A stretch of DNA of 4,271 nucleotides, taken from the IMG/VR virus record IMGVR_UViG_2648501149_000003; one strand, given 5' to 3'. The notes under the pieces were generated by a model, which was not told where the DNA came from, made no database searches, and saw nothing but the letters and a program-made list of their open reading frames with translations. The translations under genes and the position numbers were made by a program. This DNA is from a virus (Duplodnaviria > Heunggongvirae > Uroviricota > Caudoviricetes). This document shows, piece by piece, positions 675 through 2,667 of this stretch (within the stretch, counting starts at the first letter, position 1; every line of letters starts with the position of its first letter).

Positions 675-1373
675 ATGCAGGATATTCCACAGGAAACACA
701 TCATGAGACGACACGCCTCACTCAGTTAGCCCAGGTGGTGCTCTGGGAAATCGATCTGACAGAGGTCGGTGGTGAACGTTATTTTTTCTGTAATGAGCAG
801 AACGAAAAAGGTGAGCCGGTTACCTGGCAGGGGCGGCAGTATCAGGCATACCCCATTCAGGGGACGGGATTTGAACTGAACGGCAAGGGCAGTGCTGCCC
901 GTCCGACACTGACGGTTTCTAACCTGCACGGAATGGTCACCGGGATGGCGGAAGACCTGCAGAGTCTGGTCGGCGGAACGGTGGTCAGGCGTAAGGTTTA
1001 CGCCCGTTTTCTGGATGCGGTGAACTTCGTCAACGGAAACAGCGACGCCGATCCGGAGCAGGAGGTGATCAGCCGCTGGCGCATCGAGCAGTGCAGCGAA
1101 CTGAGCGCGGTCAGTGCCTCCTTTGTACTGTCCACACCGACGGAAACGGACGGCGCTGTTTTTCCGGGGCGCATCATGCTGGCCAACACCTGCACCTGGA
1201 CCTATCGCGGTGATGAGTGCGGTTATAACGGTCCGGCTGTCGCGGATGAATATGACCAGCCGACGTCCGATATCACGAAAGATAAATGCAGCAAATGCCT
1301 GAGTGGCTGTAAGTTTCGCAATAACGTCGGCAACTTTGGCGGCTTCCTTTCCATTAACAAACTTTCGCAGTAA
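675..1373 (+). CDS. L: Minor tail protein L (tail tip protein), 232 aa, with C-terminal Cys cluster
   Basis: ATG at 675 is preceded by AGGAGG at 664-669 (5-nt spacer). The 232-aa product (MQDIPQETHHETTRLTQLAQVVLWEIDLTEVGGERYFFCNEQNEKGEPVTWQGRQYQ...) matches lambda gpL in length and sequence, including C-terminal cysteines C173, C182, C205, C208 and C212. Confidence 0.92.
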   Translation: MQDIPQETHHETTRLTQLAQVVLWEIDLTEVGGERYFFCNEQNEKGEPVTWQGRQYQAYPIQGTGFELNGKGSAARPTLTVSNLHGMVTGMAEDLQSLVGGTVVRRKVYARFLDAVNFVNGNSDADPEQEVISRWRIEQCSELSAVSASFVLSTPTETDGAVFPGRIMLANTCTWTYRGDECGYNGPAVADEYDQPTSDITKDKCSKCLSGCKFRNNVGNFGGFLSINKLSQ

Positions 1374-1378
1374 ATCCC

Positions 1379-2122
1379 ATGACACAGACAGAATCAGCGA
1401 TTCTGGCGCACGCCCGGCGATGTGCGCCAGCGGAGTCGTGTGGCTTCGTGGTGAGAACGCCGGAAGGGGAAAGATATTTTCCCTGCGTGAATATCTCCGG
1501 TGAGCCGGAGGCGTATTTCCGGATGTCGCCGGATGACTGGCTGCAGGCAACACTGCACGGTCAGATTGTGGCGCTGGTCCACAGTCACCCCGGTGGTCTG
1601 CCCTGTCTGAGTGAAGCCGACCGGCGGCTGCAGGTGCAGAGTGATTTGCCGTGGTGGCTGGTCTGCCGGGGGGCGATTCACAAGTTCCGCTGTGTGCCGC
1701 ATCTCACCGGGCGGCGCTTTGAGCACGGGGTGACGGACTGTTACACACTGTTCCGGGATGCTTACCATCTGGCGGGAATTGAGATGCCTGATTTTTATCG
1801 TGAGGATGACTGGTGGCGTCACGGTCAGAATCTCTATCTGGATAATCTGGAGGCAACGGGGCTGTATCAGGTTCCGTTGTCAGCGGCGCAGCCGGGCGAT
1901 GTGCTGCTGTGCTGTTTTGGTTCATCGGTGCCGAATCATGCCGCCATTTACTGTGGTGACGGCGAGCTGCTGCACCATATTCCTGAACAACTGAGCAAAC
2001 GAGAGAGGTATACCGACAAATGGCAGCGACGCACACACTCCCTCTGGCGTCACCGGGCATGGCACGCATCTGCCTTTACGGGGATTTGCAACGATTTGGC
2101 CGCCGCATCGACCTTCGTGTGA
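1379..2122 (+). CDS. K: Tail tip assembly protein K: N-terminal MPN/JAMM (JAB) domain plus C-terminal NlpC/P60 (C40) peptidase-like domain, 247 aa. An alternative internal start at 1523 would give a 199-aa form.
   Basis: ORF 1379-2122. JAMM motif H68-x-H70-x7-S78-x2-D81 (HSHPGGLPCLSEAD, nt 1580-1621) with upstream Glu in AESCG (E19, nt 1433-1435). NlpC/P60-like Cys in VTDCYTLF (C121) and His in PNHAAIY (H187). The internal ATG at 1523 has GGAGG at 1507-1511, whereas ATG 1379 has no obvious SD and lies 5 nt after the L stop. Confidence 0.85.
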   Translation: MTQTESAILAHARRCAPAESCGFVVRTPEGERYFPCVNISGEPEAYFRMSPDDWLQATLHGQIVALVHSHPGGLPCLSEADRRLQVQSDLPWWLVCRGAIHKFRCVPHLTGRRFEHGVTDCYTLFRDAYHLAGIEMPDFYREDDWWRHGQNLYLDNLEATGLYQVPLSAAQPGDVLLCCFGSSVPNHAAIYCGDGELLHHIPEQLSKRERYTDKWQRRTHSLWRHRAWHASAFTGICNDLAAASTFV

Positions 2123-2667
2123 AAACGGGGGCCGAAGCCATCCGGGCGCTGGCCACACAGATCCCGGCGTTTCGTCAGAAACTGAACAACGGCTGGTATC
2201 AGGTACGCATTGCCGGGCGTGATGCAGGCGAAAACGAATTATCAGCCCGTCTTAATGAGCCGCTGGAAAATGGTGCCGTGATCCACATCGTGCCGCGTCT
2301 GGCGGGAGCCAAAAGTAGCGGTGTATTTCAGGCGGTGCTGGGGGCGGCGTTGATTGCGACGGCAAGCTGGAACCCGGTGGGCTGGCTGGGTGCCGCGGCT
2401 GTATCGGGCATGTATGCGGCAGGGGCCAGTATGATCCTGGGCGGTGTGGCGCAGATGCTGGCACCGAAAGCCAGGACCCCAACAACAACCAGCACAGATA
2501 ACGGCAAACAGAACACCTATTTCTCATCACTGGATAACATGGTTGCCCAGGGCAATGTTCTGCCTGTTCTGTACGGTGAAATGCGTGTGGGGTCACGGGT
2601 AATTTCGCAGGAAATCAGCACGGCAGACGAAGGGGACGGTGGTCAAATCGTGGTGATTGGTCGCTGA
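2020..2667 (+). CDS. I: Tail tip assembly protein I (ubiquitin-like N-terminal domain; Gly/Ala-rich hydrophobic middle), 215 aa
   Basis: ATG at 2020 with AGAGG at 2004-2008 upstream. It overlaps the 3' end of K by 103 nt in a different frame, as in lambda. The product begins MAATHTLPLASPGMARICLYGDLQRFGRRIDLRVKTGAEAIRALA and ends KQNTYFSSLDNMVAQGNVLPVLYGEMRVGSRVISQEISTADEGDGGQIVVIGR, as in lambda gpI. Confidence 0.88.
   Translation: MAATHTLPLASPGMARICLYGDLQRFGRRIDLRVKTGAEAIRALATQIPAFRQKLNNGWYQVRIAGRDAGENELSARLNEPLENGAVIHIVPRLAGAKSSGVFQAVLGAALIATASWNPVGWLGAAAVSGMYAAGASMILGGVAQMLAPKARTPTTTSTDNGKQNTYFSSLDNMVAQGNVLPVLYGEMRVGSRVISQEISTADEGDGGQIVVIGR

What the first reader, a model, noticed from the sequence alone, without database searches (positions are those of the whole stretch)
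1379..2122. K encodes a fused JAMM/MPN + NlpC/P60 protein, and the catalytic-motif Glu lies upstream of the short start
The sequence shows a complete JAMM signature: E19 in AESCG, then H68-S-H70-x7-S78-x2-D81, about 49 residues downstream, which is the usual spacing in MPN+ metalloproteases. It is followed by an NlpC/P60-like Cys/His set (C121 in DCYTLF, H187 in NHAAIY, H199/H200). The internal ATG at 1523 (M49), which has the better SD (GGAGG 1507-1511), would give a 199-aa product, the length I recall for the lambda K annotation. That product would lack E19 and the first strands of the MPN fold. Either the 247-aa form from ATG 1379 is the real product (translationally coupled to L, no SD), or both forms are made. 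The 48 upstream codons are in frame and free of stops immediately after L, which favours the long form.
Basis: partly seen in the sequence, partly recalled or inferred. Interest (0 to 1): 0.55.

Follow-up and report, generated by a model that had tools for sequence, protein, structure and literature searches.

The report
Lambda-type tail protein K, full length
This is an ordinary lambda-type tail-assembly gene K. Its real product is the 247-residue two-protease protein, and the textbook 199-residue version comes from one missing G in the 1982 lambda reference sequence.

Summary
ORF 1379-2122 encodes a 247-aa protein with an N-terminal JAMM/MPN+ (Prok-JAB) domain (E19, H68-S-H70, S78, D81) and a C-terminal NlpC/P60 domain (C121, H187, H199). 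The window is the M-L-K-I-J tail-tip module of a lambdoid (pro)phage.

The long form is the real gene:
- ATG 1379 is the only in-frame start upstream of E19 and lies 5 nt after the L stop.
- Codons 1-48 are under purifying selection.
- E19 is kept in 100 of 106 sequences at 32-79% identity, whereas M49 is kept in only 16.
- Only the long form passes Pfam's JAB threshold.
- An AlphaFold model (pLDDT 96.9) matches archaeal JAMM1 over about 109 columns.

The 199-aa lambda K annotation has a simple cause. J02459/NC_001416 lack one G after position 14266, 10 nt upstream of the annotated ATG. Every resequenced lambda checked that is not tied to the reference has that G and encodes the same 247-aa protein.

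The domain fusion was published between 2003 and 2006, and automatic annotation already calls the 247-aa form. The finding is therefore right but not new. Its practical value is a correction of the lambda reference. It also points to the intact JAB domain as the likely, still untested, protease that removes the ubiquitin-like N-domain of protein I.

The parts
1371..1373 (+). Stop codon (TAA) of gene L, 5 nt upstream of the K start
   Evidence: Phage_tail_L, E=1.6e-99. In distant relatives the L stop abuts or overlaps the K ATG.
1379..2122 (+). [quoted passage not shown]
   Evidence: It is 234/247 identical to the corrected lambda K. The same 744-nt CDS is annotated in mEp460 RefSeq and by PGAP in E. 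coli.
1379..1693 (+). JAMM/MPN+ (Prok-JAB) metalloprotease domain, residues 1-105
   Evidence: Pfam PF14464 matches residues 3-98. PDB 2kks aligns to residues 7-105. The AF2 model places H3-15, E21-27 and E30-36 inside the first 48 residues. Foldseek aligns 106-109 columns to PfJAMM1 5ld9/5lda.
1433..1435 (+). Codon of E19, the JAMM catalytic Glu (P-x-E-x-C-G motif)
   Evidence: Conserved in 100/106 sequences. Aligned to the Glu of NEACG in 2kks.
1580..1621 (+). H68-S-H70-x7-S78-x2-D81, the zinc-ligand part of the JAMM motif
   Evidence: Conservation: H68 102/106, H70 101/106, S78 95 (+7 Thr), D81 102/106.
1513..1513 (+). The G (in GGAGGCGTATTTCC) whose counterpart is missing from the lambda reference after J02459 position 14266
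   Evidence: Alignment of the window, lambda reference, mEp460 and lambda-identical contigs. ORF reconstruction. MutaMouse lambda-gt10 variant table.
1507..1525 (+). SD-like GGAGG (1507-1511) plus internal ATG 1523 (M49): the start that the 199-aa lambda annotation uses
   Evidence: Not conserved: codon 49 is CTG in L023 and ATC in L028, the GGAGG is absent in Citrobacter loci, and Met occurs in only 16/106 sequences.
1709..2050 (+). NlpC/P60 (C40) cysteine peptidase domain, residues 111-224, with C121 (1739-1741), H187 (1937-1939) and H199 (1973-1975)
   Evidence: Pfam PF00877 matches the full profile 1-105/105. Conservation: C121 100/106, H187 101/106, H199 101/106. Foldseek matches to MepS/Spr, LytE and Acd autolysins.
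2020..2122 (+). K/I overlap: the last 34 K codons are also read in the I frame
   Evidence: Synonymous change in K is depressed here (pS 0.156 against 0.30). An overlap is also present in distant loci (58 nt).
2020..2667 (+). Gene I, the likely substrate: an N-terminal ubiquitin-like domain (Pfam residues 14-97 = 2059-2310) ending in a conserved VPxxxG[AS] (G96 = 2305-2307), then hydrophobic Gly-rich segments and the C-terminal plug domain
   Evidence: Pfam Lambda_tail_I, E=4.2e-24. Alignment of I homologues. Coordinates. Ub-like assignment from PMC1779556.

Best explanation
Gene K of a lambdoid (pro)phage tail-tip module is translated from ATG 1379, immediately after gene L, probably by termination-reinitiation coupling. 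The product is a 247-aa non-structural assembly enzyme with two intact peptidase domains: an N-terminal zinc JAMM/MPN+ (JAB) isopeptidase-type domain that needs residues 1-48, including the catalytic E19, and a C-terminal NlpC/P60 cysteine peptidase. The 199-aa K of the lambda reference is an annotation artefact. J02459 lacks one G after position 14266, which splits the ORF and left the next ATG (M49) as the only usable start. The inferred mechanism is that the JAB domain recognises the ubiquitin-like N-terminal domain of the neighbouring protein I and cuts after its conserved C-terminal Gly (VPRLAG|A). This releases the C-terminal part of I that stays in the tail tip as the plug. K itself leaves the particle. 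The gene boundaries, domain integrity, conservation and reference error are shown here. The coupling, the substrate and the cleavage site are inferred. The confidence given applies to the shown parts (long form real, reference artefact); the K-cleaves-I step alone I put at about 0.5.
For: Start and domains: ATG 1379 is the only in-frame start codon between the upstream stop and E19. The long form scores 50.5 bits on Prok-JAB, the short form 21.7 bits, below the cut-off of 25. PDB 2kks aligns to residues 7-105 with E19 on its motif Glu.
Conservation: in an alignment of K with 105 cluster representatives (32-79% identity), E19 is kept in 100/106 sequences, H68 in 102, H70 in 101, D81 in 102, C121 in 100, H187 in 101 and H199 in 101. 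M49 is kept in only 16 (Ile in 65). Predicted N-termini lie a median of 20 residues before E19.
Selection: codons 1-48 have pN/pS 0.40. Against E. albertii the values are pS 0.46 and pN 0.04.
Gene spacing: the K start abuts or overlaps the L stop in lineages at 45-50% identity.
Structure: the AF2 model has pLDDT 96.9 and pTM 0.91, with a helix and two strands inside residues 1-48. Foldseek aligns 106-109 columns to PfJAMM1 +/- SAMP2 (TMt 0.67) and matches the C-domain to MepS/LytE.
Reference error: the lambda reference ORF from ATG 14133 is frameshifted at 14266 and stops after 76 codons. Adding the G gives 247 aa, identical to five resequenced lambda derivatives. Lambda-gt10 in MutaMouse shows 14266 C>CG (PMC6760142). 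At least 30 phage records, including LC730321, PV340536, KT232076, DE3 and the imm21/imm434 hybrids, carry the G.
Mechanism: K was predicted to process I by Iyer et al. (PMC1779556). gpK is absent from virions by mass spectrometry, and only gpI residues 135-223 are seen (PMC10721106; PMC12617516). In F-pyocin the I homologue loses its N-domain before tip-tube joining, the protease is unknown, and the K homologue is essential and absent from particles (bioRxiv 10.64898/2026.02.24.707460). I homologues share VPxxxG[AS] at the end of the Ub-like domain.
Against: There is no direct protein-level evidence here for the N-terminus (no N-terminal sequence, intact mass or initiation profiling). ATG 1379 has no recognisable Shine-Dalgarno sequence, while ATG 1523 has GGAGG 11 nt upstream, so some internal initiation cannot be excluded. 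Homologue N-termini come from gene callers, not experiments. Two non-reference records (OR474059, OR974322) also lack the G. OR974322 has reference-identical gene coordinates and looks reference-guided. OR474059 was not examined. The K-cleaves-I step has never been shown biochemically. The missing density of the gpI N-domain could reflect flexibility. The F-pyocin authors saw the isolated N-region removed by unknown host proteases in E. coli. The role of the NlpC/P60 domain is unassigned.
Confidence: 0.85

Rival explanations
1. Two products are made from one gene: the 247-aa protein from ATG 1379 and a 199-aa protein from the internal ATG 1523, driven by the GGAGG at 1507-1511. The short form would be an NlpC/P60 enzyme with a crippled JAB remnant.
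For: GGAGG lies 11 nt upstream of ATG 1523, and there is no SD before ATG 1379. ATG plus GGAGG are present in most close lambda-clade relatives. Some gene callers pick this start: there are 199-aa clusters with thousands of members.
Against: Codon 49 is CTG in E. ruysiae L023 and ATC in E. albertii L028, both with intact long ORFs. The GGAGG is just the codons Pro-Glu-Ala (CCG GAG GCG) and is lost in Citrobacter. Met49 occurs in only 16/106 diverse sequences. The short form fails the JAB threshold and lacks the catalytic Glu. The historical reason for this start is the reference frameshift, not an experiment.
Confidence: 0.1
2. The missing G in J02459 is a real mutation of the sequenced lambda stock, so classical laboratory lambda really makes only a 199-aa K and the JAB domain is dispensable.
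For: The reference and two other records lack the G. The annotated short ORF has a plausible SD.
Against: All lambda derivatives checked that are not tied to the reference carry the G: lambda-gt10, DE3, imm21/imm434 hybrids, K-12 lysogens, and more than 10 control-DNA contaminant contigs. OR974322 copies the reference coordinates exactly. The JAB motif is under strong conservation across the family. The site is a G/C-rich run (GGAGGCG), which from general knowledge is prone to band compression on 1982 sequencing gels.
Confidence: 0.05
3. K is mainly a cell-wall hydrolase. The NlpC/P60 domain would cut peptidoglycan during infection, as virion-associated tail lysins do, and the JAB domain would be accessory.
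For: The C-domain matches D,L-endopeptidases MepS/Spr, LytE and Acd. There is a weak match to TIGR02219 'putative phage cell wall peptidase' (26.8 bits).
Against: gpK was not detected in lambda virions by mass spectrometry or cryo-EM, and the F-pyocin homologue is absent from particles, so it cannot act at the cell wall during entry. The TIGR02219 score is far below its cut-off of 81.9. K mutants are tail-assembly defective (stated in PMC12617516).
Confidence: 0.05

Closest known systems
Bacteriophage lambda gpK (tail tip assembly protein K; J02459 14276..14875 as annotated)
   Same: Same gene in the same M-L-K-I-J module. It is 234/247 identical to lambda K once the reference is corrected. 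It has the same JAB + NlpC/P60 architecture as described by Ambroggio 2004 and Iyer 2006.
   Different: The reference annotation is 199 aa because of the missing G at 14266. The window has an intact 247-aa ORF. The 13 substitutions include none at motif residues.
Archaeal and bacterial stand-alone JAMM/MPN+ enzymes (PfJAMM1 5ld9/5lda, AfJAMM, DSY2949 2kks, Deinococcus DRJAMM)
   Same: Same fold and the same E...HxH...S..D motif. These enzymes cut after the C-terminal Gly of ubiquitin-like proteins. DRJAMM cleaves a MoaD-MoaE fusion (abstract of PMC8832034), which parallels the proposed cut of the Ub-like domain from protein I.
   Different: K is fused to a second peptidase and is encoded in a phage tail operon. 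Its substrate is untested.
NlpC/P60 D,L-endopeptidases (E. coli MepS/Spr, B. subtilis LytE, C. difficile Acd)
   Same: Papain-like fold and a Cys-His-His triad (C121/H187/H199). Foldseek TMt is 0.6-0.68.
   Different: K has no signal peptide context or cell-wall-binding domains and is a cytoplasmic assembly factor absent from virions. A peptidoglycan substrate is unlikely.
F-pyocin PA0639 / PA0640 (homologues of gpK / gpI)
   Same: The K homologue is essential for tip assembly and absent from the mature particle. The I homologue loses its N-terminal domain before tip-tube joining.
   Different: It is a tailocin, not a phage. I did not examine the PA0639 sequence, so its domain content was not checked here.

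Membership tests
JAMM/MPN+ (Pfam Prok-JAB PF14464) | Profile match above the curated threshold over most of the domain | tested here: met
   The 247-aa form scores 50.5 bits against a cut-off of 25, profile positions 3-103/114. The 199-aa form scores 21.7 bits and fails.
JAMM/MPN+ (Pfam Prok-JAB PF14464) | E-x(n)-H-S/T-H-x7-S-x2-D motif complete | tested here: met
   E19, H68-S-H70, S78 and D81 are present and conserved in 95-102 of 106 sequences.
JAMM/MPN+ (Pfam Prok-JAB PF14464) | MPN fold, with the N-terminal helix and strands carrying the Glu | tested here: met
   AF2 pLDDT is 96.9. 106-109 aligned columns to PfJAMM1 (129-130 aa), TMt 0.66-0.68.
JAMM/MPN+ (Pfam Prok-JAB PF14464) | Zinc binding and (iso)peptidase activity | not testable with these tools
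   Needs biochemistry.
NlpC/P60 (Pfam PF00877, MEROPS C40) | Profile match above threshold and the Cys-His-His/polar triad | tested here: met
   48.3 bits against a cut-off of 23, full profile 1-105/105. C121, H187 and H199 are conserved in 100-101 of 106 sequences. Fold matches to MepS/LytE.
Lambda tail tip assembly protein K (gpK/TAPK) | Position between L and I in the tail-tip operon, overlapping I | tested here: met
   M, L, I and J were identified by Pfam and ORF order. The 103-nt K/I overlap matches lambda.
Lambda tail tip assembly protein K (gpK/TAPK) | High sequence identity to lambda K | tested here: met
   234/247 identical to the corrected lambda K. phrog_30 E=8e-158.
Lambda tail tip assembly protein K (gpK/TAPK) | Required for tail assembly but absent from the virion | not testable with these tools
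   Known for lambda and F-pyocin from the literature only.
199-aa 'short K' isoform as a conserved gene product | Internal start codon and SD conserved among relatives | tested here: not met
   Codon 49 is CTG or ATC in close relatives, the SD-like sequence is lost in Citrobacter, and Met occurs in 16/106 sequences.
Phage cell wall peptidase TIGR02219 (GTA-type NlpC/P60) | Score above the NCBIfam cut-off | tested here: not met
   26.8 bits against a cut-off of 81.9.

The most novel reading that the evidence does not exclude
The intact JAB domain of K, which only the 247-aa form has, is the long-sought protease of the tail-tip 'proteolytic checkpoint'. It would act like a deubiquitinase on protein I, cutting after the Gly that ends its ubiquitin-like N-domain so that the C-terminal plug can engage the tape measure and the tip can join the tube. 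The 199-aa annotation in the reference may have hidden this, because constructs built from it would lack the catalytic Glu. This idea was predicted in 2006 but has never been tested.
Probability: 0.5. Interest if true: 0.6.

Novelty: already known. Interest (0 to 1): 0.33.

Why it matters
Lambda is the reference phage, and its K entry (199 aa) is still used in papers (for example PMC7291167) and copied into new records (OM418625 and DE3). A construct made from that annotation would lack 48 residues of the JAB domain, including the catalytic Glu. It could therefore give false-negative results in assays for gpI processing or tail-tip maturation, a step whose protease is explicitly listed as unknown in recent F-pyocin work. 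The gene is also very common: matches occur in 4374 of 5426 complete E. coli genomes. Correcting the reference sequence (+G after 14266) and the K start (14133) is a small curation point with practical use. It is not a new biological kind.

Tried and rejected
(1) I folded the 199-aa form with the same alignment to see whether the JAB remnant loses confidence. It did not (pLDDT 96.4 against 96.9). AlphaFold does not penalise a missing part of a domain, so the test says nothing.
(2) Model coordinates are not exposed, so the distance from E19 to H68/H70/D81 could not be measured. I relied on the alignment length to JAMM1 and on sequence alignments instead.
(3) The BFVD fold search gave only generic JAB or NlpC/P60 phage proteins.
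(4) Literature searches found no paper stating that lambda K is 247 aa or linking the 14266 insertion to K. The only hit for '14266' was a variant table in the MutaMouse genome paper. A search with 'JAMM' was swamped by radio-jamming papers. The lambda ribosome-profiling paper and the Casjens & Hendrix review are not held.
(5) I considered folding a natural K-I fusion (P0029) to look for docking of the I tail in the JAB site. I dropped this because no contacts or PAE are returned.
(6) NCBIfam gave only sub-threshold hits.

Full report
**What is in the window.** The 4271-nt window holds, all on the + strand:
- the end of a tape-measure gene
- M (336-665)
- L (675-1373)
- a 247-aa ORF (1379-2122)
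- I (2020-2667)
- the start of J

These were identified from ORF order and Pfam (Phage_min_tail, Phage_tail_L E=1.6e-99, Lambda_tail_I E=4.2e-24). The K region is 96% identical in DNA to phage mEp460 and 99% identical to prophages in E. coli chromosomes. Matches occur in 4374 of 5426 complete E. coli genomes. It is an ordinary lambdoid tail-tip module.

**Check of the observation.** The SD-like GGAGG is at 1507-1511 and the internal ATG is at 1523. Pfam finds Prok-JAB (residues 3-98, 50.5 bits, cut-off 25) and NLPC_P60 (residues 111-224, 48.3 bits, cut-off 23) in the 247-aa form. In the 199-aa form the JAB match drops to 21.7 bits, below the cut-off, and covers only the last third of the profile. 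The best sequence match in the PDB, the JAB-like protein 2kks, aligns to residues 7-105 and puts E19 on the Glu of its P-x-E-x-C-G motif.

**Which start is real.**
- ATG 1379 is the only in-frame start codon between the upstream stop (1355-1357) and E19. A protein containing the catalytic Glu must therefore start there.
- I aligned K with 105 cluster representatives drawn from an exhaustive HMMER scan (32-79% identity, median 38%). Conservation was E19 100/106, H68 102, H70 101, S78 95 (+7 Thr), D81 102, C121 100, H187 101 and H199 101.
- In the same alignment M49 is Met in only 16 sequences and Ile in 65. Predicted N-termini lie a median of 20 residues before the Glu.
- Among 14 nucleotide-level relatives, codons 1-48 have pN/pS 0.40, against 0.21 for codons 49-213. 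Against E. albertii the values are pS 0.46 and pN 0.04, so the region is protein-coding.
- Codon 49 is CTG in an E. ruysiae prophage and ATC in E. albertii. The GGAGG is the codons Pro-Glu-Ala (CCG GAG GCG) and is lost in Citrobacter.
- In lineages at 45-50% identity the K ATG overlaps or abuts the L stop (for example TGATG). This fits translational coupling and explains the lack of an SD. The coupling itself is an inference.

**Structure.** An AlphaFold2 model built on an 89-sequence alignment has pLDDT 96.9 and pTM 0.91. Residues 1-48 form a helix (3-15) and two strands (21-27, 30-36). Foldseek against the PDB aligns 106-109 columns to Pyrococcus JAMM1, free and bound to the ubiquitin-like SAMP2 (5ld9/5lda, TMt 0.66-0.68). 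It also matches 2kks, CSN5, AMSH and Rpn11. The JAB region of K is only about 105 residues long, so an alignment of that length must include the first 48 residues. The C-terminal domain matches MepS/Spr, LytE and Acd NlpC/P60 endopeptidases. No solved chain covers both domains.

**Why lambda K is annotated as 199 aa.** While collecting homologous loci I found that the stop-to-stop ORF holding K in NC_001416/J02459 is only 205 codons. Contigs otherwise identical to lambda have the full ORF.

An alignment shows a single difference at this site. The reference reads GGAGGC-TATTTCC, while the window, mEp460 and the lambda-identical contigs read GGAGGCGTATTTCC. The missing G follows reference position 14266, 10 nt upstream of the annotated ATG 14276. 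In the reference, the ATG at 14133 (5 nt after L) opens an ORF that shifts frame there and stops after 76 codons. Inserting the G gives a 247-aa protein identical to that of five resequenced lambda derivatives.

The G is present in at least 30 phage records, including LC730321 (48,503 bp), PV340536, KT232076, DE3, lambda imm21/imm434, HK629 and HK630. It is also present in lambda-gt10 integrated in MutaMouse, listed as '14266 C>CG' (PMC6760142). Only J02459, its RefSeq copy, OR474059 and OR974322 lack it. OR974322 has reference-identical gene coordinates and looks reference-guided.

The simplest reading is a base-calling error in the 1982 sequence. A private mutation of the sequenced stock is not excluded.

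Annotation is now inconsistent across records:
- 199 aa in the reference, DE3 and lambda imm21
- 211 aa in KT232076
- 247 aa in mEp460, PV340536 and PGAP-annotated E. coli

In the large protein collection the 247-aa clusters dominate, but several 199-aa clusters with thousands of members exist.

**What is already known.** The JAMM motif of lambda K was listed by Ambroggio et al. (PMC300881), using the 199-aa entry AAA96551. Iyer, Burroughs and Aravind (PMC1779556) described TAPK as JAB + NlpC/P60 and the neighbouring TAPI as carrying a ubiquitin-like domain ending in a conserved Gly. They proposed that K processes I. The architecture is therefore not new, and the 247-aa gene model is already in RefSeq for near-identical phages. 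I found no paper that links the 14266 insertion to the K start, and at least one review still works with 199 residues (PMC7291167).

**Likely mechanism.** gpK is required for tail assembly. It was not found in virions by mass spectrometry or cryo-EM (PMC10721106 and PMC12617516). In virions only gpI residues 134/135-222/223 are resolved, forming the plug that holds the C-terminus of the tape measure.

In F-pyocin the gpI homologue PA0640 loses its N-terminal domain before the tip joins the tube, and the protease is unknown. The gpK homologue PA0639 is essential and absent from particles.

I homologues from the window, lambda, Citrobacter and five distant enterobacterial loci share VPxxxG[AS] at the end of the ubiquitin-like domain, followed by hydrophobic Gly-rich segments. 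In the window this Gly is G96, at 2305-2307.

I therefore favour the 2006 proposal. The JAB domain would cut I after that Gly, as JAMM enzymes cut after the C-terminal Gly of SAMP or MoaD-type proteins. The precedent is DRJAMM cleaving MoaD-MoaE (abstract of PMC8832034). This step is inferred, not shown. The NlpC/P60 domain has an intact, conserved triad, but its substrate is open.

**Verdict.** The feature is a known gene with a known architecture. The added value is the explanation of the 199-aa annotation as a one-base error in the lambda reference, and the consequence for experiments on gpK.

Noticed in passing
window 2020-2122 (I start region); L001, L061, L064: Gene I has its own start ambiguity. 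Lambda annotates the first ATG (window 2020; 103-nt overlap with K). PGAP, mEp460 and PV340536 use the GTG overlapping the K stop (window 2119), which removes the first strands of the ubiquitin-like domain (the Pfam match starts at residue 14). The second ATG (2059, MARICLYGDL) aligns with the N-terminal Met of distant I homologues (MLIFRFAG).
   Followed up: partly
window 2020-2122; loci L043-L051: The K/I out-of-frame overlap is conserved across distant lineages: 103 nt in the lambda clade and 58 nt in relatives at 47-49% identity. Synonymous change in the K frame is depressed there (pS 0.156 against 0.30).
   Followed up: partly
L007-L018, L025, L027, L029-L031, L034, L036, L037, L039, L040, L042, L055, L056, L058, L059 (genome-contig hits): Many assemblies of unrelated taxa (Pseudomonas, Shewanella, Chromatium, Paenibacillus, Bradyrhizobium, Streptomyces, MAGs) contain low-coverage contigs, some about 48.4-48.5 kb, that are lambda or near-lambda DNA. 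These are almost certainly control-DNA contamination. The contigs that cover the site carry the +G at 14266.
   Followed up: no
P0012, P0029, P0094, P0117, P0021, P0003, P0005: Singleton database proteins fuse K to I or to L, or carry internal duplications of K segments. They look like frameshifted or degenerate prophage copies or assembly errors, not real fusion proteins.
   Followed up: partly
lambda reference position 137/138 (not in the window): The MutaMouse lambda-gt10 variant table also lists 137 AG>A together with 14266 C>CG. This may be a second error in the reference sequence.
   Followed up: no
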